DNA of 64,000 nt, from positions 3,431,031 to 3,495,030 of the forward strand of contig OZ242330.1 in NCBI GenBank assembly GCA_965208365.1. The letters run 5' to 3'. Shown in pieces: positions 10,661 to 24,900 of the stretch (position 1 is its first letter; each line of letters starts with the position of its first letter). Source of the stretch: Caldilineaceae bacterium. Lineage in GTDB: Bacteria; Chloroflexota; Anaerolineae; Caldilineales; Caldilineaceae. The translations under genes were made by a program, and so were the position numbers. The notes under the pieces were generated by a model. The model saw only the letters and a list, made by a program, of their open reading frames with translations. It did no database searches and had not been told where the DNA came from.

Positions 10661-11242
10661 ATGTCCACCCAGGCCCACCCGACCACCAGTCCCGTGCCGA
10701 CAACGTCCCCGGCACGATTCTGGCTCGCGGCCACGCTTCTGACGCTGGTTCTCGGTTTGGCATGGATCTGGGTGTCGGCACCCGGACGCACATCTGCGGT
10801 GCTGGAGGACTCGGCCGGTCCGTTCATCGGCCATGCAGCACCGCCAATTCAGCTGGTGTCACTGGAGGATCCAACCGTTGCGAATGTTGTCAACGGAGTG
10901 GAGGTGCCCGTGGTCCTCAACTTCTGGGCGTCCTGGTGCAACCCGTGCCGCCGTGAGATCCCGGAACTGGTGGAGGCCACCCAGCGCTTTGGGCAAGAAG
11001 TGCGTGTGGTGGGGATTGTGATGCCATCCGACGCGGACGGGGCCAGGACCATGGCGGACGAGTTCGGCATCAACTACGAACTCTCGGTGGATGCTTCGGG
11101 AGGTCGGGGGCACGCGGACTACGACGTGCGCAGCATTCCAACCACCTACTTCATAGACCGCAGCGGTGTCATCAGGGCCAAGGTGACGGGGGAAATGAGT
11201 GCCGCGGTCCTGACGGAAGGCATCTCGCGCATCCTGAATTGA
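10661..11242 (+). CDS. TlpA/ResA-like thiol:disulfide oxidoreductase (thioredoxin fold, membrane-anchored)
   Basis: N-terminal TM helix (FWLAATLLTLVLGLAWIWV). CxxC active site in FWASWCNPCRREIPEL. Confidence 0.8.
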   Translation: MSTQAHPTTSPVPTTSPARFWLAATLLTLVLGLAWIWVSAPGRTSAVLEDSAGPFIGHAAPPIQLVSLEDPTVANVVNGVEVPVVLNFWASWCNPCRREIPELVEATQRFGQEVRVVGIVMPSDADGARTMADEFGINYELSVDASGGRGHADYDVRSIPTTYFIDRSGVIRAKVTGEMSAAVLTEGISRILN

Positions 11243-11299
11243 CAGCCCTCAGGCCAGGGCGATTGCATCTAAATTGGGTGGCGCGACCGTGTGGTTGGC

Positions 11300-11640
11300 G
11301 CGTGGCCACAATGGGTTGCAAGAGTTGGACTGTCTCAACAGACGCGAAATGGCCGCGCGGGTCGGCATTGCCCTCCTGACCGGGCATCGGCTGGTACCGG
11401 GGCCAGCGTCGCGTCTGGGATGGTTGTGCCTCCGTGCGCACGATCCCCTGCACGACCACCGTGACTATTACCCGCCACAACCCCACCATCCGCGACTTCG
11501 ACACCCACTTGTGCCGACGGGGCAAGTCTAGAAAGGTGGCACTCGTCGCGGCCATGCGCTAGCTGCTCCTCACCCTGAACGCGGTGATCTGGGATACAGG
11601 TTCCTTGGCAGCAGGAACCTGTGTCCACGGCTGTTGAGGC
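11300..11640 (+). pseudogene. IS110-family transposase relic (C-terminal third only; frameshifted, in-frame stop)
   Basis: Two frames together read ...ELDCLNRREMAARVGIA... and ...GQRRVWDGCASVRT...ITRHNPTIRDFDTHLCRRGKSRKVALVAAMR*LLLTLNAVIWD. This matches the conserved IS110 C-terminus (..RRxIAAxxGxAP..GGRxxxR..RHNPxxRxFYxRLxxxGKxxKVALxAxMRKLLxxLNA). The catalytic N-terminal domain is absent. Boundaries are approximate. Confidence 0.6.
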
Positions 11641-12017: not shown

Positions 12018-13208
12018 ATGCTCCGTATTGACCTCAAACGACTGCTGGATGGCTGCTCCGACGACTCCTTCGACGCGGGCATCAAGATGGCTACAGTCCT
12101 GCAACCGCTGTCGGGGCCGGCTGGGCCTGTCAAACCGGCCGTGTACGCAGGTGGCCAGTACCAACTGGACAAGCGGTTCGCCGACACGTCCGATGCAGAA
12201 CCGACGCCGGTGATCGTCATTGACAACGTGCCTTCCCAAGCCAATCGCTTGGAAGATGCCCTACGTCGCAACCGGGAACAGCTTGGCCTCCCGGAGTTCC
12301 TCCTGGATTTGGCCGAGTTGGGAGCGTTGCCGTCGCATGTGCTCCGCTCGCTGTCCTCGTTCCAGTTTCCGCATCGCAATGCCGACGCCTACCTGCGTGA
12401 TTCGACTTGGGACGGCACCGATTTCCTCAAAACAGAGATTGGACAGTCCATTTTCGGGGCAACCGCCGGTGAGTGCGGCCCACTGATGTCATGGTTCCCG
12501 CAGGCCCTGCTGTACGGGTTCTGGCAATCCCATCTTGGCAAGAAACGGCACAACAGCAAGCATGCCCGCGCTTGGGTCTCGGAGATCATCGGCTGGAACC
12601 CCGCCGACACCGAGACCAGGACCTTTGGGCTGAAGGGCGATCCCCTGAACCTGAACATAGACGAGGAGGTGAGAGTCAACTCCAATGATCTGGGCGACTG
12701 GAGCATCGGCAAAGAGAACGGTACCAAGGCGGACAAACGTTCATCTTCAAAGCTTTCAGGCATCGGACATGGTCAAACACCGTTCACAGGCACCGATTCC
12801 GCGCTTGCTGCTGTGTCGTTCCAGCGCGTGACCCAGTTGGCCACCGTGTCGTTTGCCCAGCTTCGGCGTGTCAGTCTGGGGCGTGGCACCCCGCCCGCAA
12901 CCGACGCGGCCGCTCGTGCCCTGCTGGTGGCCATGGGCCTGCATGCCCATCGCATCGCCTTTGAGCGTGCGTTCTCGCTTCGATCAGGTGCGGACCTTCG
13001 CCCCCGGTCCACAATCAAGACATGGCTGGGCGTAGAGGACGAACCTTGTGAAGTCGAGTCAACAGGTTCGCTCCTGCAGGAAGCAAAGGCTCACGCCCTT
13101 GAAGTTGGTGTGCCATTGGCCGGATGGGACCAACCATCAACGGTGTTGAAACCCAAACCCAATTTGGCTAATGTCATCCGTTCCACTTGGCCAAAGAGCA
13201 CAGACTGA
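12018..13208 (+). CDS. csb1: CRISPR-associated Cas7u (Csb1 / GSU0053-family RAMP)
   Basis: 396 aa. The motifs PVKPAVYAGG, VPSQANRLEDAL and FPHRNADAYLRDS match my recollection of the Csb1 family. It is the first gene of an overlap-coupled cas operon, preceded by GGAGG 10 nt upstream of the ATG. Confidence 0.75.
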   Translation: MLRIDLKRLLDGCSDDSFDAGIKMATVLQPLSGPAGPVKPAVYAGGQYQLDKRFADTSDAEPTPVIVIDNVPSQANRLEDALRRNREQLGLPEFLLDLAELGALPSHVLRSLSSFQFPHRNADAYLRDSTWDGTDFLKTEIGQSIFGATAGECGPLMSWFPQALLYGFWQSHLGKKRHNSKHARAWVSEIIGWNPADTETRTFGLKGDPLNLNIDEEVRVNSNDLGDWSIGKENGTKADKRSSSKLSGIGHGQTPFTGTDSALAAVSFQRVTQLATVSFAQLRRVSLGRGTPPATDAAARALLVAMGLHAHRIAFERAFSLRSGADLRPRSTIKTWLGVEDEPCEVESTGSLLQEAKAHALEVGVPLAGWDQPSTVLKPKPNLANVIRSTWPKSTD

Positions 13209-14650
13209 TGTTCTCTGTTTCCGTAGAACTGTTGCATGGCGTGTTTCGGGGCGATGCGGACGGGACAGCCAACACCGGGCATCTGAGCAAGGGTGAGTGG
13301 CCGCCGTCACCCGCCCGTCTATTTGCTGCCTTTGTGGCGGCCGATGGCACCGGAATTGCGTGTCGCTTGACCGACGGATCGGAACTGGAATGGCTGGAAG
13401 GGCTGCAACCGCCCATCATCTACGCGGATCCTCAACCAACACATACGCCGATCCTTCCGCGGTACGTCGTTGAGCAACGCAAATCCGGCATCAAAAACCA
13501 ACACCAGGAATACCCGGCCCGCAAAGGGACACGCGTTTGGCCGGGCGTGCGTGTCTGCCCGCGCACACCCATGATCCACTACACATGGGACACACCAATC
13601 CCGCCAGCCGACATCTTCGCTGCGCTTCAACGACGTGCAGCGCGCATTGGCTACCTTGGTACGGCAGATTCCCCGGCGCGCGTACAGGTCCTGACGGACG
13701 ACAGATTGCTAGACCTGCCGGAATGCCAAGGGTTTGCCGCGTGCCCGGATGGTCAAATGCTGGTCAACGTCCCGCAACCCGGCGATCTTGCCATCTGGGA
13801 TCGGATGTACGAGCAATGGACCGAACGGGGGGCGGCTTTGAGTCGAACACAGTTTCATGCCCTGAAACACGAGGTCCGTTACCGCAACCCGGCAATGGAA
13901 GTGCAACCTCCGCTGGACCGCGGTCAGGTGGTGGTCTGGCTACGGGTGGAACCTGCAGTGTCCGGGCGGCGCGTCGCGGCCATGACTGAACTGTTCAAAA
14001 AGGCTTTGCTGGCCAAGTACCAGTTCACATATGGTGGACCGCCGGCGGTGTTGCACGGCCACGGCATCAACGGGAAGGGGCATGACGACCTTGCCCGGTA
14101 CTTGGCCCTTCCCGATGTCGGCTTCCAGTGGTCCAAAGGACTGATCCACGGACTGGCCTTGTGGATGCCACCGGGTTCCGAGTCGTTGGACCGTAGGCGA
14201 GCGCGTGACGCGGCCCTTTCAATTCGCACTCTGACGGGACGCGGCATCCAAGTCTCGGTAGTGTGCCAAGACAGTGCAATCCATCCACGGGCGACCCATC
14301 CCGATCGCTGGGAACGGAAGTCTCGCACATGGGCAACTGCTGTTCCTGCTATCCACGAACGTTGGCGAAGTCTCTCGTTGACCAACCTCGCGGTTTGGTG
14401 CGCTCATGCCGGATTGCCGGAACCGGTTGACTTCCGTGCCGCCCGCACCCCGCTCGTTCCTGGAGGGATTGATCTTGCACCTTCCGAGGTTCATCGCCCG
14501 GGAAGGCCCGTGCGACCCTACTCGCACATTGAAATCCGGTTTGAGGAACCCATACCGGGACCGGTTGTGTTCGGTGCAGGCCGCCAGCGAGGATTTGGGC
14601 TCTGTATCCCGATGGACGATTCCATACGCTCCTCAACCAGGACACAATGA
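13208..14650 (+). CDS. csb2: CRISPR-associated Cas5u/Cas6u fusion (Csb2 / GSU0054 family)
   Basis: N-terminus MFSVSVELLHGVFRGDADG....EWPPSPARLFAAFVAA is the family signature. The ATG at 13208 shares one base with the csb1 stop (TGATG). The track's upstream start at 13187 lies inside csb1. Confidence 0.75.
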   Translation: MFSVSVELLHGVFRGDADGTANTGHLSKGEWPPSPARLFAAFVAADGTGIACRLTDGSELEWLEGLQPPIIYADPQPTHTPILPRYVVEQRKSGIKNQHQEYPARKGTRVWPGVRVCPRTPMIHYTWDTPIPPADIFAALQRRAARIGYLGTADSPARVQVLTDDRLLDLPECQGFAACPDGQMLVNVPQPGDLAIWDRMYEQWTERGAALSRTQFHALKHEVRYRNPAMEVQPPLDRGQVVVWLRVEPAVSGRRVAAMTELFKKALLAKYQFTYGGPPAVLHGHGINGKGHDDLARYLALPDVGFQWSKGLIHGLALWMPPGSESLDRRRARDAALSIRTLTGRGIQVSVVCQDSAIHPRATHPDRWERKSRTWATAVPAIHERWRSLSLTNLAVWCAHAGLPEPVDFRAARTPLVPGGIDLAPSEVHRPGRPVRPYSHIEIRFEEPIPGPVVFGAGRQRGFGLCIPMDDSIRSSTRTQ

Positions 14651-17406
14651 TGCTCAAGCCGACATTCGCAGAGTTCTACCAGGCCTGCAACGGATACGAA
14701 CCTTTCCCCTGGCAGGACCGCTTAGCCAACAGCGTTGCTGAAACCGGTGCCTGGCCTGCGGAAATCGGAGTTCCGACCGGACTGGGCAAGACCTCGTGCC
14801 TTGACATTGCCGTGTGGTGGCTTGCTTCGCAAGCAGATCGGGAACCGGTTGCCCGCACTGCGCCGACGCGTATCTGGTGGGTTGTCAACCGCCGGTTGCT
14901 GGTGGATGCCACTGCGGATCACGCCCAACGCATAGCGGATATCCTTGAGGATCCGTGGAAAAAAGATGTTACCGGGCGGGAGTTGCAGACTGTGTTGGCG
15001 GTCCAGCAGCAACTCAGATTTCTCTCTGCCGGACGTGCACCGGCCTTGGATGTCATTCGGCTCCGCGGCGGCATTGCCGGGCGCACTCCAATCAATCCAT
15101 CTTGCCCTACCATCATCCTTTGCACCTTGCCCATGTACGGCTCGCGTTTGCTCTTTCGCACATACGGCTCACGGTTGCGTTCCGTCGATGCAGCAATGGC
15201 TGGGACAGACAGTTTGATCCTGCTGGATGAAGCACACCTCGCTCCCCACTTGCAGAACCTGATCCCGGCCCTCAATGAATGCATGCCGGGCACCGTATCG
15301 ATTCTCGGCGAACGTCGCTCCAGGCCTCAGTTGACATCCCTGACGGCAACTGGACGGGCGCAACCCGGACAACGGTTCGACCTGGACGACCGCGACAAGG
15401 CACATCCAATTGTCAAACAGCGCATCCATGCTGCAAAGCCGCTGGAAATCCGAGAGTGCAAGGGCGAGGCCGGAAAACATCTTGCCGAGGCGTGCTCCGA
15501 CCTACTCAAGGGCAGACCGCCCTCCGCTGTCATCGTTTTCGCTAACACGCCGGACACTGCCCGCAAAACCTTCGAGCGGGTTCGGAAACGGCATAGCCGG
15601 GAAGCCGAAGTCCTGCTGCTCACTGGCCGCCAGCGCGAGTGGGAAGCGGAACGGCTGCGGAAACGCATCCTAGACCCGCAGGAAGGCATGGTCGATACAT
15701 TCACCGTCCAACGCCGGCGGCATCTCATTGTCGTCGCAACGCAAACGTTGGAAGTGGGCGCAGACATCGATGCCGAGTACATGGTGTCCGAAGCGTGCGG
15801 AGTCCGGGCCCTTACGCAGAGACTGGGCCGCCTGAACCGCTTCGGACACCATGCCCATGCGCGTGCGGTGTATGTCCATATCCCGCCCAAAGGCAATAAG
15901 CCGAAAATATCCTGGCCGGTCTATGGTGTGGAGCCCTTGCAGGTTCTCGAGCGACTTCAGGGGGCTATTACAGAAGGCGGGACCAGCACGGTGGACCTGT
16001 CTCCTGCCAGGGCAGCCAAGGTCTTGGGAGATCCGGCCGACGGCATCGGACGCGCCTCGGAAATCATGCAGGGCATTTTGTGGGAGTGGGTGAAAACGAC
16101 CACCCCGCCCGAGGGCGAAGCCCCGGTAGAACCCTACTTCGCCGGCATCAGCGGAGCGCAGTACTCGGTGTCCTTGATCTGGCGGGCACATGTTCCGGAT
16201 CCGGAAGACGAAAACATACTCCGTCTCTGGCCTCGGACCACGGACAGGGAAGCGATGGAAGTCCCCATCCACGAAGTTCGGAGTGTGTTGGACCCCGCGG
16301 AAACCGTCTGTCGACTGGCCCTTGACAACCTCACAATCCAAGCAGCCACACCTGCGGATTTGCGACCGGGAGACCGCATTGTGTTGGCCATGGACCGCGG
16401 CCTGATGGACGATTTCGGTTGGAATCCCGAAGCATTCGATCCGGTCAGAGACATGTCTCTGACCGGGCAGGGATTGCCGCTTGACGCACAAGCAATTCAG
16501 CGTCTGTGTGGCATTGACGTTGGGCGATACATCGACACTTGCAACCAAGCGTTCAAGGCCGAGGGTGCAGACCAAGACGCTGGCGACAAGGCGGTTTCGG
16601 CACTCTTGGATGCAGTCCGGGCTGCTCCCGCACCGGCCGGATGGGAGTGGTCGGAGTGGGAGGATTTCCTCGATTCCTTGCAGCCGGATCCCAAGCGGTC
16701 ACGACGCAGCGTCCTGCGCTTGCACACGAACGACAACGACGGCACCTGGAATAGCAGCGACCTGGATGAAACATCGCTGGCTGTTGACGCAACCGGTTTG
16801 GATGCCCACGGCGAGGCGGTAGCAAACCTAGCCGCGCGGATCGCCGAGAGGATTGGTATTCCTCCGCCATTGGCCTGTGTGGCAGAGGCGGCGGGAAAAC
16901 TCCACGACATCGGCAAAGCCGATCATCGGTTTCAACGCTGGCTGCAATCCAGCTTCGAGCCGGGGCAGCTGCTGCGAGCCAAATCCAACACGCCCCGCCA
17001 TCGTTGGGATGCGACACGCGAGGCAGCAGGGTGGCCCAGCGGTGGGCGTCACGAAGAATTGTCTGCCCGTTTGGTCCTTGCCTGGCTGCAACAAGGCAAA
17101 CCCCCATTCAACCGGCGGGAACAAGACTTGCTCGTCCACCTGATCGCCAGCCATCATGGAAAAGCCCGTCCGTTCACGATGCCGGTTCCTGACGACAGCC
17201 CCGCGCAAGTGTCCAGTCTGATTGACGGCGTGCAGGTCCAGGTTTCCGCCAATCTTGCCGATCCGGACTGGGAGCAACCTACCCGGTTTTATCGGCTCAA
17301 CCAGTGGCTGGGACCCTGGGGGCTGTCCCTCATGGAAGCCATCGTCACACTTGCCGACCATACGGTATCTGCGGGGGAATACACCAATGAGGAACGCGAA
17401 CCATGA
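14647..17406 (+). CDS. cas3: Cas3 helicase-nuclease with C-terminal HD domain
   Basis: Walker A VPTGLGKTSCL and DEAH box LILLDEAHL. The HD domain sits at the C-terminus (GKLHDIGKADHRFQ ... HEELSARL ... LIASHHGKARP), the arrangement reported for type I-G/I-U Cas3. ATGA overlap with csb2. Confidence 0.9.
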   Translation: MMLKPTFAEFYQACNGYEPFPWQDRLANSVAETGAWPAEIGVPTGLGKTSCLDIAVWWLASQADREPVARTAPTRIWWVVNRRLLVDATADHAQRIADILEDPWKKDVTGRELQTVLAVQQQLRFLSAGRAPALDVIRLRGGIAGRTPINPSCPTIILCTLPMYGSRLLFRTYGSRLRSVDAAMAGTDSLILLDEAHLAPHLQNLIPALNECMPGTVSILGERRSRPQLTSLTATGRAQPGQRFDLDDRDKAHPIVKQRIHAAKPLEIRECKGEAGKHLAEACSDLLKGRPPSAVIVFANTPDTARKTFERVRKRHSREAEVLLLTGRQREWEAERLRKRILDPQEGMVDTFTVQRRRHLIVVATQTLEVGADIDAEYMVSEACGVRALTQRLGRLNRFGHHAHARAVYVHIPPKGNKPKISWPVYGVEPLQVLERLQGAITEGGTSTVDLSPARAAKVLGDPADGIGRASEIMQGILWEWVKTTTPPEGEAPVEPYFAGISGAQYSVSLIWRAHVPDPEDENILRLWPRTTDREAMEVPIHEVRSVLDPAETVCRLALDNLTIQAATPADLRPGDRIVLAMDRGLMDDFGWNPEAFDPVRDMSLTGQGLPLDAQAIQRLCGIDVGRYIDTCNQAFKAEGADQDAGDKAVSALLDAVRAAPAPAGWEWSEWEDFLDSLQPDPKRSRRSVLRLHTNDNDGTWNSSDLDETSLAVDATGLDAHGEAVANLAARIAERIGIPPPLACVAEAAGKLHDIGKADHRFQRWLQSSFEPGQLLRAKSNTPRHRWDATREAAGWPSGGRHEELSARLVLAWLQQGKPPFNRREQDLLVHLIASHHGKARPFTMPVPDDSPAQVSSLIDGVQVQVSANLADPDWEQPTRFYRLNQWLGPWGLSLMEAIVTLADHTVSAGEYTNEEREP

Positions 17407-18296
17407 TCCAAGTGCAATGTCCGGGCCTACCTGCGGATTGGGTGAATGCCTGGCTCGCAGCAATTGGCGCAACCCTGTTGGATCACCGCATTCGGTTGCA
17501 CTGGACATCCCAGGGTTCGCCTGTGGCCGTACTCTCTGCACAGGGCACCGACCCAGTTGAGTGCCTGATTGAGTCGTGGCCTGATGCGGGGTTTCTGGCC
17601 GATCTGCCCGTCGCGGAGACGTGGAGCGGAACTGCTGCAGTCAAGCGCAAAGTTCCAGTTGAGGCTTTCAGGGAGCGTGTCCAGGCAGCCCGCGGCCATC
17701 GCCACGCATGGACGCTGTCATCCACGATGACAGACCTCTGTGTCGATCAAGACGGGTATGTGGCGCACGCACCTTTCGACCCGCCCGCGCCGAAGGGTGC
17801 CTACCTCCATCAGAGATTGGTGAGAGTCCACGAGCATGTGGATCCAAACGCAAACCACATTCAAGATGCGCTGAGGGGGCAACCGCTTCTCGTGAAGAAC
17901 AACGGACTGGGGTTCGATCAAGGTCGCCTCGCCTCTTCGTCCGACGCAACATCCCCTCTGGTCAATCCCGTCGTCGAAGTGCTTGCCTTCTTTGGTCTTT
18001 GCCTACTGCCGGTAAGGGGACCAGGAACCGACAGACGTTTGGACGGCCGTGCCAACATCGCTGAGCAACAGAGGGGTTTTATGCCGTTGAAGGTTGGAGT
18101 GCGTCGCAACTTTCACTGGCCCGCATGGACCCCGCCGCTTGGTCGAGACGGCATCGACGCGCTCCTAGACTCTTGGGATCCCGCCCAGCAGGCCAGATGG
18201 CCCCTGCTGGGTATCCATTCAGCGTGGCAGAGTGTCCAGTACCAACATCAAGGTGCGCTGGATGCCACACGCGCATTTGGATCTGCACGCCTATGA
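17403..18296 (+). CDS. Candidate Cas8u-type large subunit, unusually short (Csx17/Csb3-like by position)
   Basis: 297 aa, embedded in the operon with ATGA overlaps on both sides. The N-terminal GLPADWVNAWLAAIGATLL and the internal NPVVEVLAFFGLCLLP resemble Csx17-type motifs as I remember them. The assignment is mainly positional. Confidence 0.45.
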   Translation: MIQVQCPGLPADWVNAWLAAIGATLLDHRIRLHWTSQGSPVAVLSAQGTDPVECLIESWPDAGFLADLPVAETWSGTAAVKRKVPVEAFRERVQAARGHRHAWTLSSTMTDLCVDQDGYVAHAPFDPPAPKGAYLHQRLVRVHEHVDPNANHIQDALRGQPLLVKNNGLGFDQGRLASSSDATSPLVNPVVEVLAFFGLCLLPVRGPGTDRRLDGRANIAEQQRGFMPLKVGVRRNFHWPAWTPPLGRDGIDALLDSWDPAQQARWPLLGIHSAWQSVQYQHQGALDATRAFGSARL

Positions 18297-18910
18297 CACC
18301 CGAACCTGTCGTTCTGATCTCCGCTATCGAGCACTTTATCTACTGCCCGCGGCAATGCGCGTTGATCCATTGCGACGGTGTGTGGAGTGACAATGCCCAC
18401 ATCGTTCGGGGAACACGCGCACATCGGCGTGTAGATAGTGGGAAGCACCGGCAGGAACGAGGCTGGAAGGTTCTGCGTTCCATACCCCTCTGGTCAGATA
18501 CTCTGGGATTGTCCGGCCGCGCCGATGCCATCGAGATGAGAGGTGGGGAAGTTCGCCCCGTCGAATACAAGTCGGGTGTACGGCACGGTTCAGCAGCGGA
18601 TTTCCAAGTTTGCGCCCAAGCCCTTTGCCTGGAGGAAATGCTGGGTGTACATATTCCCTACGGGTTTGTCTGGTACGGGGGGCCCCGGCGTCGCGAGAAG
18701 GTTGAATTCTCTCCAGTGTTGCGTCGAGACGTGTGCGATGTCATTGAGCAAATCAGGACACAGTTGCTGACGACTGCACTGCCGGATGCACCCAACGACG
18801 CCCGTTGTACGGAGTGCCAGCTGTTGCACCACTGTCTGCCCCAACTCACAAGTGCTCCACACACTGTGACCGACTACATGACATCCGTGGTGTTCCAATG
18901 CGACTCTTGA
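18293..18910 (+). CDS. cas4: Cas4 (RecB-like nuclease with 4-Cys Fe-S cluster)
   Basis: N-terminal CPRQC plus C-terminal CTECQLLHHC. Nuclease core DAIEMRGGEVRPVEYKSG. The ATG at 18293 overlaps the upstream stop (ATGA) and is in frame with track ORF 18125..18910. Confidence 0.9.
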   Translation: MTPEPVVLISAIEHFIYCPRQCALIHCDGVWSDNAHIVRGTRAHRRVDSGKHRQERGWKVLRSIPLWSDTLGLSGRADAIEMRGGEVRPVEYKSGVRHGSAADFQVCAQALCLEEMLGVHIPYGFVWYGGPRRREKVEFSPVLRRDVCDVIEQIRTQLLTTALPDAPNDARCTECQLLHHCLPQLTSAPHTVTDYMTSVVFQCDS

Positions 18911-19917
18911 GCACCGTCTATATTCGGGATCATCGAGCCCGCGTGCGTCACAGCCAGGGTTCTCTGATCGTCGACGCGCCAGCCGGCAAGCAGCGCATCC
19001 CATTGGAATCCGTGGATACCCTTGTCATTCTGGGCAACGCACAAATTACATCGCAGGCCCTTGGTGTCTGCGCGCAACGAGGAGTCACTGTCGCCGCCTT
19101 GCACATGGGCGGGAGCGTCCGGTTCACCGTGTCGGGAGCCAAAAGCGGGAACATCAACTTGCGCCTGGCCCAGTTCGATGCGGCCACGGACGACAGGAAG
19201 TCTGTGGTCATCGCCAAGTCCATTGTTGCGGCCAAAGTCCAAAACAGCGCGATGGTGGTCGACAGATGGGCACGGGACGAGAAGGATGCAGGGCATGCGG
19301 AGCAACTTGCTGAGCGTGCCTCCCAGATCAAGAACCGCGTTGCACGGTTGGCGGATGCTGATTCCGCCAACCTGGTAAGGGGCATTGAGGGGGATGTTGC
19401 ACGAATCTACTTCCGTGCGCTTGGACAGGCAGTATCAAACACGGGGTTTGAGTTCACGGCCAGGACAAGACGGCCACCCAGGGATCCGGTCAACGCTCTG
19501 CTGGGATTTTGCTACGCCCTACTCGTGACAGAATGTACCGGAGCTGCAGAAAGCGTCGGCCTTGACTTCCAGTTGGGCTTTCTGCATCGACCTCGTTCGG
19601 GGCGGCCATCGCTTGCGCTGGACATCACCGAAGAGTTTCGGGCACTCACGGATCGGTTTGCCGTGTCGCTGATGCGCCGGAAGCAGATTAGCGCAGACAA
19701 CTTCGAGCACACACCCGGCGGTGCGGTCTACCTCACCAACGAAGGAAAAAAGCGGTTGCTCCAAGCGTGGGAGGCGCACAAGGACAAAGACATTCGCCAC
19801 CGTCTACTGGGGCGTCCAGTGGGCCGGTGGGCACTGCCCGCGGTTCAAGCTACACTTTTGGCCAGACACTTGCGCGGAGATATCCCTGCGTACCCGCCTT
19901 TCATCCTACCGTGGTGA
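18898..19917 (+). CDS. cas1: Cas1 integrase
   Basis: GIEGDVARIYF, RRPPRDPVNALLGFCYALL and GFLHRPRSGRPSLALDITEEFR. The ATG at 18898 overlaps the cas4 3' end by 13 nt, in a different frame, so the two are not fused. Confidence 0.95.
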   Translation: MRLLSTVYIRDHRARVRHSQGSLIVDAPAGKQRIPLESVDTLVILGNAQITSQALGVCAQRGVTVAALHMGGSVRFTVSGAKSGNINLRLAQFDAATDDRKSVVIAKSIVAAKVQNSAMVVDRWARDEKDAGHAEQLAERASQIKNRVARLADADSANLVRGIEGDVARIYFRALGQAVSNTGFEFTARTRRPPRDPVNALLGFCYALLVTECTGAAESVGLDFQLGFLHRPRSGRPSLALDITEEFRALTDRFAVSLMRRKQISADNFEHTPGGAVYLTNEGKKRLLQAWEAHKDKDIRHRLLGRPVGRWALPAVQATLLARHLRGDIPAYPPFILPW

Positions 19918-19920
19918 TCA

Positions 19921-20217
19921 ATGGACGTGCTGGTTACCTACGACATCGCCGATACCGACGAGGAAGAAGGAGCGAAACGCTTGAGGCGCATCGCCAAGGT
20001 CTGCCAGAAGTACGGGCAACGTGTCCAGTTCTCGGTGTTCGAGTGCCGCGTATCCAACACACAACTGGAACGAATGATCGGCGAGGTTGAGGATGTCTTC
20101 GACAAGTCCTGTGACTCTGTCATCATCTACCGCTTCCCCGGTGAGATGGAGAGTGCTACACTGCGTCTTGGTTGCGACAAACAGGAACGGAAACTCGGCG
20201 AACCGTGGATCCTGTGA
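19921..20217 (+). CDS. cas2: Cas2
   Basis: 98 aa. MDVLVTYDI...RLRRIAKVCQKYGQRVQFSVFECRV is the typical Cas2 ferredoxin fold. It begins 3 nt after the cas1 stop. Confidence 0.9.
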   Translation: MDVLVTYDIADTDEEEGAKRLRRIAKVCQKYGQRVQFSVFECRVSNTQLERMIGEVEDVFDKSCDSVIIYRFPGEMESATLRLGCDKQERKLGEPWIL

Positions 20218-20347
20218 GAGGCTTGCGAACCTCCAGTGATGTCGTATCTCCGGTGACATAATCGGATTTCATTGGGGTGGAGAGACTTGAAATGCGCCCT
20301 GAACTGCTGAATTTCACTCTCCAATGGCTTGATTTGGCCTTTTAGCC
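20218..20347 (+). promoter_or_regulatory. CRISPR leader (cas2-proximal), with a candidate extended -10 (TGaCATAAT at 20254-20262)
   Basis: 130-nt non-coding stretch, relatively AT-richer, between cas2 and the first perfect repeat. The degenerate repeats lie at the opposite end of the array, which places the leader here. The promoter call rests on sequence resemblance only. Confidence 0.55.
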
Positions 20348-21340
20348 CTGTCTCTGGGGTTCATGCCCCAGACTTCGTTGAGCGGGAGCAGATCGTGTCG
20401 GCGACGCGTGCCCTGGCCCACTGTCTCTGGGGTTCATGCCCCAGACTTCGTTGAGCGAGGCCTGCCGGCCGGAACCCACGGCCGACACCGTCTGTCTCTG
20501 GGGTTCATGCCCCAGACTTCGTTGAGCGCGTACACAACAAGCTGTACTGCAAGACCGTCTGCAACTGTCTCTGGGGTTCATGCCCCAGACTTCGTTGAGC
20601 GCGCACCCGAACTGCCTGTGCTTCCTTACGCCAAGGCCTGTCTCTGGGGTTCATGCCCCAGACTTCGTTGAGCGCTAGTCCTTTGGAGAGAACCACGCCG
20701 CCTCCGGGTCTGTCTCTGGGGTTCATGCCCCAGACTTCGTTGAGCGATCCCGTCACCGTCCAAACCATCGGACCGCGGGAAACAACTGTCTCTGGGGTTC
20801 ATGCCCCAGACTTCGTTGAGCGGATCACTCTCGCATCCGACGCCCTCGACGTAACCACCACTGTCTCTGGGGTTCATGCCCCAGACTTCGTTGAGCGGTG
20901 GAACCATCTGGCCGTACCGACGGGGTCCGGCAACTCTGTCTCTGGGGTTCATGCCCCAGACTTCGTTGAGCGGGGAAACATAGGCACTGCCACTGTTCGA
21001 TCCCGTCTCTGTCTCTGGGGTTCATGCCCCAGACTTCGTTGAGCGGTCTATCCGACCTGGATCCCGCAGGGCACGGACCAGGACTGTCTCTGGGGTTCAT
21101 GCCCCAGACTTCGTTGAGCGGACAATTGCGAGAGCTGGACCCTGCGGCTGTGCAATACTGTCTCTGGGGTACATACCCCAGACTTCGTTGAGCGCAGCCT
21201 TCGTTGCGGAACACGGCCGCGCCGATGCCCTGTCTCTGGGGGTTCATGCCCCAGACTTCGTTGAGCGGGCGGATATGCCGGCAGGGCTGCGCCTGATCGT
21301 TGACTGTCTCTGGGGTACATACCCCAGACTTCATTGAACG
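20348..21340 (+). CRISPR. CRISPR array: 14 repeats of 37 bp, 13 spacers of 34-39 bp
   Basis: Repeat consensus is CTGTCTCTGGGGTTCATGCCCCAGACTTCGTTGAGCG. It has an internal 7-bp stem TCTGGGG/CCCCAGA, a loop TTCATG and a 12-nt 3' tail. Repeat starts: 20348, 20421, 20492, 20565, 20638, 20710, 20786, 20861, 20936, 21009, 21084, 21158, 21230, 21304. Repeats 1-11 are identical. R12 has 2 loop substitutions, R13 has one extra G (38 bp) and R14 has 4 substitutions. Confidence 0.97.
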
Positions 21341-21820
21341 CACCAAATCCCGCGCCCTCCCAATTGCCCAACAAATCTGTTGTTGGTCCCCCCCCCAATT
21401 TCTCGACTCTGACCGCGAGTGGTGCGATCTGGCCAGTCTGATCTGGGTCAAATACGAACGTCGCTGTGGTGATCGGGTCGAGATGAACGTCTGCTGCTTT
21501 ATTTCCAGCCTGTCCCCAAGGCCAAGCTCCTATGGCAAGCCGCCGCCGGGCATCGAATACGAACACCACAGGGTACTGGCTGTCGTCTCTGGTGAGGACG
21601 ACAGCCGCATCCGCACGGGCCACGCGGTTCACAACATGGCCATCCCAAGCACATCGCCTACAATCTGCCGCCGCAAGCGTCCATCAAAGTAGGCATCGCC
21701 AACAAGCGGCTGGCAGCGGCTTGGAACCAGGGCTGCCTGTGTTGGCTGGCTGGTCTCAAGCCCAAACCTATTTGGCTCGACTTTATGCAAAGTCGAGTTT
21801 ACATGCAATCGTCCTGTCCC

Positions 21821-24145: not shown

Positions 24146-24856
24146 TCAGTCGAGGCTGCGCAGAACCGCAAGAACTTTGCCTTGGATCTCCACCTGCGAT
24201 GCGTGGCGTCGGACGGGCTGGTGCATGTGGTTGGGACTGGACGGCTGGAGACGCACAAAATCCCCTTCGCGGTAAAACTGTTTCAGGGTCATGGCGTTGT
24301 CGTCCGCGATCCAGGCAGCCACCAAGTCTCCGTTGCGTACCGATCCTTCCTGGGGCGGGGACATGACGACAATGTCGTTGTCGAGAATCCCGGAGTCAAT
24401 CATGGAATCGCCCTGGACGCGCAAGGCGTAAACATTGGCGCGGTATCCAATCATTTCCTGGGATACATGAACATGTTCGTCCGCGGTCAGCCAGGTGCGG
24501 GTTTCTCCCACATCCACCGGATTGCTGGCGACGATATTGCCCAGCACCGGTACCATCTGGTGGTTCTGCCGATCCGTTTCCTCGATATCAAACCCCTTTT
24601 CCTCTGCCTTGGAGTAGTTGAGTTTGATGGCGCGGCTGGCATGCCGTTCCCTTGAAATGAGACCGTGCTCAACCAACTTGCCAAGGTTATAGTTGACCAC
24701 GGAGGAGCTGGGCACGCCGATTGCGTCGCAAATTTCCCGGATGGACGGGGGGTATTGTCTTTGCGCAATGTATTCGTGAATGAACTGGAACATCTTGCGT
24801 TGGCGATCTGTCAGTTCACGCAGTTTGTACTTTCCGCGTTTACCTGTGCGTGGCAT
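24146..24856 (-). CDS. lexA: LexA repressor
   Basis: N-terminal wHTH (REICDAIGVPSSSVVNYNLGKLVEHGLISR). S24 peptidase core VQGDSMIDSGILDNDIVVM ... LKQFYREGDFVRLQPSSPN. ATG at 24856 is preceded by AGGAG with a 7-nt spacer. Confidence 0.9.
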   Translation of the reverse strand: MPRTGKRGKYKLRELTDRQRKMFQFIHEYIAQRQYPPSIREICDAIGVPSSSVVNYNLGKLVEHGLISRERHASRAIKLNYSKAEEKGFDIEETDRQNHQMVPVLGNIVASNPVDVGETRTWLTADEHVHVSQEMIGYRANVYALRVQGDSMIDSGILDNDIVVMSPPQEGSVRNGDLVAAWIADDNAMTLKQFYREGDFVRLQPSSPNHMHQPVRRHASQVEIQGKVLAVLRSLD

Positions 24857-24900
24857 TGCTATGCTCCTGATCGGAATCTGTGCAGTTTGCAACAACTTTG

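What the first reader, a model, noticed from the sequence alone, without database searches (positions are those of the whole stretch)
12018..21340. Complete type I-G/I-U-like CRISPR-Cas locus with non-canonical architecture and an almost fully overlap-coupled operon
Gene order is csb1(cas7u)-csb2(cas5/6u)-cas3-[297-aa ORF]-cas4-cas1-cas2-leader-array. The reference I-G layout, as I remember it from Geobacter, is cas3-cas8u2(csx17)-cas7u-cas5/6u-cas4::cas1 fusion-cas2. Three things differ here:
- The effector backbone genes precede cas3.
- The large-subunit slot is half-size and sits after cas3.
- Cas4 and Cas1 are separate proteins whose genes overlap by 13 nt in different frames.

Every junction from csb1 to cas1 has overlapping stop/start codons: TGATG, ATGA, ATGA, ATGA and the 13-nt overlap. 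This implies tight translational coupling. Cas3 carries its HD domain at the C-terminus, consistent with I-G. The 37-bp repeat does not end in the common ATTGAAAC-type handle.
Basis: partly seen in the sequence, partly recalled or inferred. Interest (0 to 1): 0.7.

Follow-up and report, generated by a model that had tools for sequence, protein, structure and literature searches.

The report
This is an intact bacterial CRISPR-Cas immune locus of the known type I-G kind, in a gene layout that looks odd next to the textbook Geobacter example but is in fact published, catalogued and very common, so it is ordinary.

Summary
Seven co-directional cas genes (12018-20217) with overlapping stop/start codons are followed by a 130-nt leader and a CRISPR array of 14 repeats (20348-21340).

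HMMs assign Csb1/Cas7g, Csb2/Cas5-6g and Cas3g (HD domain at the C-terminus) to type I-G. The 297-aa ORF belongs to NCBIfam NF049934 ("type I-G CRISPR-associated protein, Cas3-extension family"). A confident AlphaFold model of it has one significant PDB match, the 649-residue chain of the solved I-G effector entry 8b2x. I read it as a short Cas8g with no Cas11-like helical tail.

The "non-canonical" order is not new:
- csb1-csb2-cas3-cas8u1 is published for myxobacteria, and the same order for a mycobacterium.
- It occurs on Azotobacter and Streptomyces plasmids (Rhodothermus at least as far as cas3).
- It occurs, with unfused cas4 and cas1, in essentially all of 80 related loci from species-representative genomes, many titled as sponge-derived MAGs of at least ten phyla.

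The repeat is typical of I-G: a covarying hairpin, then CTTC, then a predicted 8-nt handle GTTGAGCG.

What is particular to this clade is an unfused adaptation module that scores best against type I-C models.

Verdict: a new member of a known kind, of low interest.

The parts
12018..13208 (+). csb1 / cas7g, the Cascade backbone subunit (396 aa)
   Evidence: TIGR02570 62.6 bits (cut-off 38). PF09617 111.6 bits. PADLOC Cas7g 103 bits.
13208..14650 (+). csb2 / cas5-cas6 fusion, the type I-G signature gene and predicted pre-crRNA endonuclease (480 aa)
   Evidence: TIGR02165 193.5 bits (cut-off 45), full length. PADLOC Cas56g 261 bits. His440 in YSHIEIRF is conserved in 8 of 9 diverse Csb2 proteins, and a C-terminal G-rich loop GAGRQRGFG is present. 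TGATG overlap with csb1.
14647..17406 (+). cas3g helicase-nuclease, with the helicase N-terminal and the HD domain C-terminal (919 aa)
   Evidence: TIGR02621 580.7 bits (cut-off 400). The cas3_HD model matches residues 718-843. Motifs present: Walker A GLGKT at 45, DEAH at 194, HD at 753, SHHG at 835.
17403..18296 (+). short cas8g (cas8u1-type large subunit, NF049934 family), 297 aa
   Evidence: NF049934 69.9 bits (cut-off 65). Homologues after cas3 in Azotobacter, Streptomyces and L088 score 152-171 bits, and the Azotobacter one matches PADLOC Cas8g 'CAS-I-U effector_LS' over its full length. AlphaFold model pLDDT 96.3. [quoted passage not shown]
18293..18910 (+). cas4, stand-alone PD-(D/E)xK Fe-S nuclease (205 aa)
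   Evidence: TIGR00372 122 bits. PF01930 81 bits. Best PADLOC model is Cas4c at 217.5 bits. Cys18 plus Cys172/175/181, and D78...E91-x-K93, are present.
18898..19917 (+). cas1 integrase, stand-alone (339 aa); overlaps cas4 by 13 nt in another frame
   Evidence: PF01867 294.5 bits. TIGR00287 255 bits. The best subtype model is Cas1c, TIGR03640, at 346.9 bits (below its cut-off of 385), against 279 bits on the Cas4g/Cas1g fusion model.
19921..20217 (+). cas2 (98 aa)
   Evidence: TIGR01573 67.9 bits. PF09827 81.5 bits. Best PADLOC model is Cas2c.
20218..20347 (+). CRISPR leader (130 nt, 49% GC)
   Evidence: It lies between the cas2 stop and the first repeat. The degenerate repeat is at the opposite end of the array.
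20348..21340 (+). CRISPR array: 14 repeats of 37 nt and 13 spacers of 34-39 nt
   Evidence: The repeat folds into a hairpin of 8 pairs at -14.5 kcal/mol. The hairpin covaries across 20 related repeats: 6 of 8 pairs change on both sides and 98.8% of cells are paired. The 3' CTTCGTTGAGCG is conserved in most related loci.

Best explanation

How it most likely works, inferred from characterised I-G systems:
1. The array is transcribed from the leader at the cas2 end.
2. The Cas6-like C-terminal domain of Csb2 cuts each repeat 4 nt 3' of the hairpin base. This would give crRNAs of the form 5'-GTTGAGCG-spacer-CUGUCUCUGGGGUUCAUGCCCCAGACUUC-3'.
3. About seven Csb1 (Cas7g) subunits coat the guide, and Csb2 stays on the 3' hairpin.
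4. The 297-aa protein plays the Cas8g large-subunit role. It sits near the 5' end and PAM side and tethers Cas3g, which nicks and then unwinds and degrades the target DNA.
5. Cas4, Cas1 and Cas2 act as separate proteins to select PAM-proximal prespacers and integrate them at the leader-proximal repeat.

The overlapping stop/start codons give translational coupling of the subunits.

Shown here: gene content, family membership, intact catalytic motifs, the fold similarity of ORF297 to the 649-residue chain of 8b2x, repeat structure and covariation, and conservation of the layout.

Inferred: the cleavage site, the stoichiometry, the role of ORF297 in the complex, and activity.
For: - Curated HMM hits above cut-off for Csb1, Csb2, Cas3g, NF049934, Cas4, Cas1 and Cas2, with concordant Pfam and PADLOC hits.
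- Intact motifs in Cas3, Cas4, Cas1 and Csb2.
- ORF297: the AlphaFold model has pLDDT 96.3, and the only significant PDB match is 8b2x, the type I-G effector entry, through a 649-residue chain that I take to be Cas8g because Cas8g is its large subunit. Family members occupy the same post-cas3 slot in Azotobacter, Streptomyces and the metagenomic locus L088.
- The seven-gene order is conserved in nearly all of 80 loci from GTDB species-representative genomes; 137 relatives were confirmed. Cas4 and Cas1 are unfused in 61 of 62.
- No other gene is conserved in the flanks.
- The repeat hairpin covaries.
- The 3' CTTC + GTTGAGCG fits the reported Csb2 cleavage 4 nt 3' of the hairpin base with an 8-nt handle (PMC9638904), and the 8-nt handle seen in B. 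lactis (PMC9335239).
- Published descriptions of the layout: PMC11237760, PMC10333696, PMC4223832, PMC3150331.
Against: - No expression or activity data exist for this locus.
- No protospacer was found, so neither PAM nor targets are known.
- ORF297 passes NF049934 only narrowly (69.9 bits against a cut-off of 65).
- Its link to Cas8g rests on one Foldseek hit with a moderate TM-score (0.54 normalised to the query). That PDB model was itself built from an AlphaFold prediction docked into a map of about 8 Å (PMC9638904).
- ORF297 has no Cas11-like helical domain, so its functional equivalence to the full-length Cas8g is not guaranteed.
- The Cas4-Cas1 fusion that some authors call a distinguishing feature of I-G is absent.
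Confidence: 0.85

Rival explanations
1. ORF297 is not a Cascade large subunit. It is instead a Cas3 accessory or 'extension' that acts with, or as a detached part of, Cas3g, for example in loading or regulating the helicase-nuclease. Cascade would then be only Csb1 plus Csb2.
For: - NCBI names the family 'Cas3-extension family', with model name adjac_Cas3_IG.
- The gene always follows cas3, and the two overlap by ATGA or by 1 nt in 65 of 74 loci.
- The protein lacks the Cas11-like C-terminal domain of full-length Cas8g.
- In T. sulfidiphilus, Csb2, Cas7 and crRNA assemble without Cas8g (PMC9638904).
Against: - The only significant structural match is the 649-residue chain of the I-G effector entry 8b2x, which I take to be Cas8g.
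- PADLOC files the family's profile as Cas8g 'effector_LS'.
- In T. sulfidiphilus it is Cas8g that bridges Cas3 to the backbone, so 'Cas3 partner' and 'large subunit' are not mutually exclusive (PMC9638904).
- None of the best 150 of 238 family representatives is long enough to be a fusion with Cas3; the longest is 403 aa.
Confidence: 0.12
2. The locus represents a new subtype or hybrid system: an I-G effector recombined with a type I-C adaptation module. It would deserve separate classification rather than being a plain I-G member.
For: - Cas4, Cas1 and Cas2 score best against I-C models: Cas4c 217 bits, Cas1c 347-353 bits, Cas2c 95 bits. They score well below the Cas4g/Cas1g fusion model (127 and 279 bits against a cut-off of 560).
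- Cas4 and Cas1 are unfused in 61 of 62 loci of this clade, but fused in 35 of 38 loci carrying CTTCATTGAGG-type repeats.
Against: - Subtypes are defined by the effector module, and I-G is typified by csb2 (PMC9638904).
- I-G systems were first described as I-C variants (PMC3150331), so adaptation genes that resemble I-C are expected.
- Variable adaptation modules in I-G are already reported (PMC11237760).
- Cas1 falls below the curated I-C cut-off (346.9 against 385).
- The repeat is of the I-G kind, not the I-C kind (PMC7264901).
Confidence: 0.1
3. The locus is a decaying, non-functional remnant.
For: - A transposase-like remnant abuts the trailer end of the array.
- Repeats 12-14 are variant.
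- No spacer target was found.
Against: - All seven ORFs are full length with intact catalytic motifs.
- Eleven consecutive repeats are identical, and all 13 spacers are unique.
- A near-identical locus exists in an independent assembly, L204.
- Degenerate trailer repeats are normal in CRISPR arrays.
Confidence: 0.05

Closest known systems
Type I-G systems with the csb1-csb2-cas3-cas8u1 layout (myxobacteria, PMC11237760; M. heckeshornense csb1-csb2-cas3-hypothetical-<IS1380>-cas1-cas2, PMC10333696; Azotobacter pAcX50e and a Streptomyces plasmid; Rhodothermus pRMAR01 as far as cas3, where the fetched stretch ends)
   Same: - Same gene order for the effector module.
- Same family (NF049934, PADLOC Cas8g 'effector_LS') in the slot after cas3 in the Azotobacter and Streptomyces loci.
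- Cas3g with a C-terminal HD domain.
- Repeat of 36-37 nt with a hairpin and a TTGA-type tail.
   Different: - Only 24-27% identity in Csb2 to the three plasmid examples.
- The Azotobacter and Streptomyces loci show no adaptation module nearby.
- Here a complete unfused cas4-cas1-cas2 module and an array are attached.
Thioalkalivibrio sulfidiphilus and Geobacter sulfurreducens type I-G (Csx17/Cas8g layout; PMC9638904)
   Same: - Csb2 signature gene, Cas7g backbone and Cas3g.
- Repeat geometry compatible with cleavage 4 nt 3' of the hairpin and an 8-nt handle.
- ORF297 has fold similarity to the 649-residue chain of 8b2x, which I take to be Cas8g.
   Different: - Different gene order (cas3-cas8g-cas7-csb2 there).
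- The large subunit there is 649 aa with a Cas11-like helical C-terminal domain. Here it is 297 aa, mixed alpha/beta throughout, with no helical tail.
- Cas4-Cas1 is fused there and separate here.
Bifidobacterium type I-G/I-U (Csb1-Csb2-Csb3; PMC9335239, bioRxiv 10.1101/2022.08.19.504415, PMC7264901)
   Same: - Related repeat: hairpin, then ACTTCaTTGAG.
- 8-nt handle.
- In gut-metagenome loci with this repeat type the order is also csb2-cas3-X-cas4/cas1-cas2-array.
- A small protein of about 300-360 aa sits in the slot after cas3.
   Different: - The protein in that slot there (L095) is a different PADLOC family (PDLC01374, 423 bits). It has no NF049934 hit and no hhalign similarity to the ORF297 family.
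- Cas4-Cas1 is fused there (NF049935, 487 bits).
Type I-C adaptation module (Cas4c-Cas1c-Cas2c)
   Same: Best-scoring HMMs for all three adaptation proteins. The genes are unfused and in the order cas4-cas1-cas2.
   Different: - Cas1 is below the curated I-C cut-off.
- No Cas5c, Cas8c or Cas7c is present.
- The repeat is not the I-C type, which is 33 nt ending ATTGAAAT in Bifidobacterium (PMC7264901).

Membership tests
Type I-G (formerly I-U) CRISPR-Cas | csb2 (Cas5-Cas6 fusion) signature gene | tested here: met
   TIGR02165 193.5 bits against a cut-off of 45, full length. PADLOC Cas56g 261 bits. PMC9638904 states that I-G is typified by csb2.
Type I-G (formerly I-U) CRISPR-Cas | Csb1/Cas7g backbone protein | tested here: met
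   TIGR02570 62.6 bits against a cut-off of 38. PF09617 111.6 bits.
Type I-G (formerly I-U) CRISPR-Cas | Cas3g helicase-nuclease with a C-terminal HD domain | tested here: met
   TIGR02621 580.7 bits against a cut-off of 400. HD domain at residues 718-843, helicase motifs at 45 and 194.
Type I-G (formerly I-U) CRISPR-Cas | Cas8g/Cas8u-type large subunit | tested here: met
   Met in a short form. NF049934 69.9 bits against a cut-off of 65. Foldseek hit to the 649-residue chain of 8b2x, E 4e-4. No Cas11-like C-terminal domain in the model.
Type I-G (formerly I-U) CRISPR-Cas | Cas4-Cas1 fusion protein (called a distinguishing feature in PMC10333696) | tested here: not met
   Separate ORFs overlapping by 13 nt in different frames. 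NF049935 scores 127 and 279 bits against a cut-off of 560. Unfused in 61 of 62 related loci. PMC11237760 shows that the adaptation module is variable within I-G, so I treat this feature as typical rather than defining.
Type I-G (formerly I-U) CRISPR-Cas | Repeat of 36-37 nt with a hairpin, processed by Csb2 to an 8-nt 5' handle | tested here: inconclusive
   Length, hairpin, covariation and the conserved CTTC + GTTGAGCG tail fit. The processing itself cannot be tested with these tools.
I-G 'csb1-csb2-cas3-cas8u1' layout (PMC11237760) | Gene order csb1, csb2, cas3, then a short large-subunit gene | tested here: met
   The same order is seen in 80 related loci and in the Azotobacter and Streptomyces plasmid loci. 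I could not test whether the paper's 'cas8u1' label corresponds to NF049934 or PDLC01514; I infer it from position and size.
Bifidobacterium Csb3 family (PADLOC PDLC01374) | Sequence or profile similarity of the post-cas3 protein | tested here: not met
   ORF297 has no PDLC01374 hit. hhalign of the ORF297 family against the L095 protein gives probability 0.3%. That L095 is from Bifidobacterium is inferred from the repeat type and the human-gut source.
Type I-C CRISPR-Cas | Cas5c-Cas8c-Cas7c effector, and Cas1c above the curated cut-off | tested here: not met
   No I-C effector gene is present. TIGR03640 scores 346.9 bits, below its cut-off of 385.

The most novel reading that the evidence does not exclude
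This clade could be a mechanistically distinct 'minimal' I-G. Its Cascade would have a large subunit that consists only of the Cas8g N-terminal-like domain and would have no Cas11-like module at all. R-loop stabilisation and Cas3 tethering would then have to work differently from the T. sulfidiphilus effector. In addition, the whole seven-gene cassette appears to have spread horizontally among at least ten phyla, many of them MAGs whose record titles point to marine sponges. Proteins in these loci are mostly 50-65% identical to those of the window, the repeat tail is conserved, and some arrays exceed 100 repeats.
Probability: 0.25. Interest if true: 0.4.

Novelty: new member of a known kind. 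Interest (0 to 1): 0.2.

Why it matters
It matters little for discovery. The locus is a well-preserved example of a published and catalogued type I-G layout.

It has some practical value:
- It shows that the Geobacter/Thioalkalivibrio order should not be treated as the only 'canonical' I-G architecture.
- The short Cas8g family (NF049934) is widespread: 238 clusters at 50% identity. No study I found characterises this family experimentally, although a similarly small Csb3 was co-purified in a Bifidobacterium Cascade (bioRxiv 10.1101/2022.08.19.504415). Its confident predicted structure and compact effector (four proteins, about 230 kDa of unique sequence) could interest people developing type I editing tools.
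- The apparent cross-phylum spread among MAGs that look sponge-derived is an ecological observation worth a proper phylogenetic test.

Tried and rejected
- **Shallow AlphaFold run.** ORF297 with a 20-sequence alignment failed (pLDDT 38). A 112-sequence alignment succeeded.
- **Sequence searches against PDB.** Profile searches with ORF297 and a search with Csb1 found nothing meaningful. The link to the I-G effector structure is visible only by structure comparison.
- **Plasmid search with ORF297.** tblastn found no match. The plasmid homologues were reached through Csb2 and then confirmed by HMM.
- **Spacer targets.** The whole array against INPHARED phages gave no hit. Spacers 1, 3 and 5, with every sixth base wild-carded, gave no hit in IMG/VR. 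There are no self-targets in the window. The PAM therefore stays unknown.
- **RNA families.** Rfam and tRNA scans of the window found nothing.
- **Promoters and terminators.** Hits in the locus were no more frequent than in shuffled sequence.
- **Extra conserved genes.** A search of the flanks of 59 loci found only spurious ORFs running through the arrays.
- **Equating ORF297 with Bifidobacterium Csb3.** Rejected: different PADLOC family and no hhalign similarity.
- **Classification papers.** Makarova 2015 and 2020 are not held in the library.
- **Sponge literature.** No paper linking sponge symbionts with I-G/I-U was found.

Full report
**1. Observation**

The ORF list, the translations and the junction sequences confirm seven co-directional genes on the + strand:
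- csb1: 12018-13208
- csb2: 13208-14650
- cas3: 14647-17406
- a 297-aa ORF: 17403-18296
- cas4: 18293-18910
- cas1: 18898-19917
- cas2: 19921-20217

The junctions are TGATG, ATGA, ATGA, ATGA, a 13-nt overlap in another frame, and a 3-nt gap.

A 130-nt leader (49% GC) follows, then a CRISPR array at 20348-21340. The array has 14 repeats of 37 nt, CTGTCTCTGGGGTTCATGCCCCAGACTTCGTTGAGCG, and 13 unique spacers of 34-39 nt. Repeat 13 has a 1-nt insertion. The terminal repeat is degenerate, which places the leader at the cas2 end.

The flanks are ordinary chromosomal genes: sugar-nucleotide transferases, 6-phosphogluconate dehydrogenase and a thioredoxin-like protein upstream, and an O-antigen-ligase-domain protein and LexA downstream. 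GC content is flat across the region.

**2. Identity of the genes**

NCBIfam gives the following:

| Protein | Model | Bits | Cut-off |
|---|---|---|---|
| Csb1/Cas7g | TIGR02570 | 62.6 | 38 |
| Csb2 | TIGR02165 | 193.5 | 45 |
| Cas3g | TIGR02621 | 580.7 | 400 |
| ORF297 | NF049934, 'type I-G CRISPR-associated protein, Cas3-extension family' | 69.9 | 65 |
| Cas4 | TIGR00372 | 122.3 | 65 |
| Cas1 | TIGR00287 | 255.3 | 71.7 |
| Cas2 | TIGR01573 | 67.9 | 24.5 |

Pfam and PADLOC agree.

The HD domain of Cas3 lies at residues 718-843, after the helicase. Catalytic motifs are intact:
- Cas3: GLGKT at 45, DEAH at 194, HD at 753, SHHG at 835.
- Cas4: four cluster cysteines and D...ExK.
- Cas1: E, H and D/E residues.
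- Csb2: a conserved His440 ahead of the G-rich loop.

The adaptation proteins score best on type I-C models: Cas4c 217 bits, Cas1c 347-353 bits, Cas2c 95 bits. They score far below the Cas4g/Cas1g fusion model NF049935 (127 and 279 bits against a cut-off of 560). Cas1 is nevertheless below the curated I-C cut-off of 385.

**3. The 297-aa protein**

- It has no Pfam domain.
- Its family is large and uniform. There are 1077 clusters at 90% identity and 238 representatives at 50% identity. Nearly all of the listed members that look full-length are 270-330 aa, and none is long enough to be a fusion with Cas3.
- The proteins encoded directly after cas3u on the Azotobacter chroococcum plasmid pAcX50e and on a Streptomyces plasmid are annotated 'hypothetical'. 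They score 152 and 167 bits on NF049934. The Azotobacter protein matches the PADLOC profile PDLC01514 (Cas8g, 'CAS-I-U effector_LS') over its full length at 134 bits.
- With a 112-sequence alignment, AlphaFold gives pLDDT 96.3 and pTM 0.94. The fold is mixed alpha/beta along its whole length and ends in beta-strands.
[quoted passage not shown] Next, far weaker, is a type I-A Cascade chain. I take the 649-residue chain to be Cas8g, the large subunit of that effector.
- Shangguan et al. describe Cas8g as an alpha+beta N-terminal domain resembling Cas8a2 plus a Cas11-like helical C-terminal domain (PMC9638904).

I therefore read ORF297 as a short Cas8g that corresponds to the N-terminal domain only. 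The domain assignment is an inference, because the tool does not show the residue alignment.

**4. How common is the layout**

A scan of one genome per GTDB species with two peptide motifs of ORF297 confirmed 137 relatives; 80 loci were fetched.

- tblastn with the seven window proteins shows the order csb1-csb2-cas3-ORF297-cas4-cas1-cas2 in essentially every locus long enough to hold it.
- Cas4 and Cas1 are unfused in 61 of 62 of these loci.
- The same junction classes recur: -1 at csb1/csb2 in 59 of 66; -4 or -1 at cas3/ORF297 in 65 of 74; -4 at ORF297/cas4 in 57 of 61; -13 or -4 at cas4/cas1 in 35 of 58.
- No further conserved flanking gene exists.
- The hosts are MAGs of Chloroflexota, Acidobacteriota (Vicinamibacterales), Rhodothermales, Alpha- and Gammaproteobacteria, Gemmatimonadota, Latescibacterota, Spirochaetia and others. 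Many record titles look like sponge-metagenome bins; I infer this from the titles and did not verify it.
- The nearest locus among the 80, L001, is from a Caldilineaceae MAG. Its proteins are 70-98% identical to those of the window.
- A separate ENA contig, L204, carries the same seven-gene order and an ORF297 that is 98% identical.

**5. Literature**

- Makarova et al. 2011 already drew three variants of the GSU0053/GSU0054 systems, then called I-C variants (PMC3150331).
- The Salinispora study named I-U_csb3 and I-U_csx17 arrays (PMC4223832).
- The myxobacterial survey states that csb1-csb2 is followed by cas3-cas8u1 in some cases and by cas3-csx17 in others. It also states that the I-G adaptation module may be Cas1-Cas2, a Cas4/1 fusion with Cas2, or absent (PMC11237760).
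- M. heckeshornense carries csb1-csb2-cas3-hypothetical-<IS1380>-cas1-cas2 (PMC10333696).

**6. The repeat**

- Most related loci carry a 37-nt repeat of the form GTGTCGCCGGGG-N6-CCCCGGCCTTCGTTGAGCG.
- On an alignment of 20 distinct repeats, the stem of 8 pairs is 98.8% paired. Six of the 8 pairs change on both sides, which exceeds all 500 shuffles and all slid controls.
- The window repeat folds at -14.5 kcal/mol.
- The Bifidobacterium pseudocatenulatum I-U repeat, ATTCCTGAGCTAATCAGCTCAGGACTTCATTGAGGA (PMC7264901), has the same plan and shares ACTTCnTTGAG.
- T. sulfidiphilus Csb2 cuts 4 nt 3' of the hairpin base and leaves an 8-nt handle (PMC9638904). B. lactis crRNAs have an 8-nt handle (PMC9335239).
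- Applied here, this predicts cleavage after CTTC and the handle GTTGAGCG. That is a relative of ATTGAAAC, ATTGAGGA and the myxobacterial tail motif -TTGAAGC, not an exception to the type.

**7. Relation to the Bifidobacterium Csb3 variant**

A metagenome scan for arrays with CTTCATTGAGG tails returned 120 loci.

- These loci also run csb1-csb2-cas3-X-cas4/cas1-cas2-array.
- Cas4-Cas1 is fused in 35 of 38. In L095 the fusion scores 487 bits on NF049935.
- X is NF049934 in some loci (L088, 171 bits).
- In the human-gut, Bifidobacterium-like locus L095, X is a different PADLOC Cas8g family (PDLC01374, 423 bits). It has no profile similarity to the ORF297 family.

So placing the large-subunit gene after cas3 is the general rule outside the Csx17 branch. 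ORF297 is not Csb3.

**8. Verdict**

This is a complete and apparently functional type I-G locus in the known csb1-csb2-cas3-short-cas8g layout.

The one feature particular to its clade is the unfused cas4-cas1-cas2 module, which resembles type I-C. That is within the variability already reported for I-G.

Not known: targets and PAM, and whether a Cas8g without a Cas11-like domain changes the mechanism.

Novelty: a new member of a known kind. Interest: low.

Noticed in passing
window 21400-21760 (+ strand, frameshifted): Just past the trailer end of the array, the three-frame translation reads ...CCFISSLSP...GIEYEHHRVLAVVSGEDDSRIRTGHAVHNMAI... and ...HIAYNLPPQASIKVGIANKRLAAAWNQGCL... By eye this looks like the C-terminal part of an ISAs1-family transposase broken by frameshifts. 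The longest ORF here (21300-21689) has no Pfam hit. It may mark an old IS insertion that truncated the array.
   Followed up: partly
window 14647-20217 compared with L001 838-6407: Nucleotide identity to L001 (a Caldilineaceae MAG) is uneven. It is about 80-85% across cas3, falls to 62-77% in the 3' half of ORF297, and rises to 88-94% across cas4-cas1-cas2. At protein level the figures are 83%, 70%, 96%, 92% and 98%. Either the short Cas8g evolves fastest or the modules have been exchanged.
   Followed up: partly
loci L001-L080: The same seven-gene cassette occurs in MAGs of at least ten phyla, many of whose record titles look like sponge-metagenome bins. Proteins are mostly 50-65% identical to those of the window, the repeat tail CTTCGTTGAGCG is conserved in most loci, and several arrays have more than 100 repeats and run off the fetched 20 kb. 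This suggests cross-phylum horizontal spread in one habitat. I found no paper describing it.
   Followed up: partly
L002/L012 (OZ253578.1), L031/L032 (OZ244976.1), L015/L017 (CATQHX01), L006/L009 (CBDHCM01): Several single MAGs carry two copies of the cassette or of ORF297. In OZ244976.1 the two copies lie about 26 kb apart, and one of them retains only ORF297 next to a short array.
   Followed up: no
L039, L040, L045, L054, L058 (about 10900-11400): In a Rhodothermales and Roseobacter-group subset, ORF297 is followed within 200-300 nt by a cas2-like hit. tblastn found no full-length cas4 or cas1 there, and the array finder found no array. This may be an adaptation-less derivative.
   Followed up: no
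window 21158-21340: Repeats 12 and 14 share the loop variant GGGGTACATACCCC, and repeat 13 (21230-21267) has an extra G. The trailer-end repeats are therefore older variants, while the 11 leader-proximal repeats are identical.
   Followed up: yes
window 24149-24895 (- strand): A LexA-type repressor gene (Peptidase_S24 plus the LexA DNA-binding domain) lies about 3 kb downstream of the array, beyond a 731-aa protein with an O-antigen-ligase domain. There is no evidence that it is linked to the CRISPR locus.
   Followed up: no
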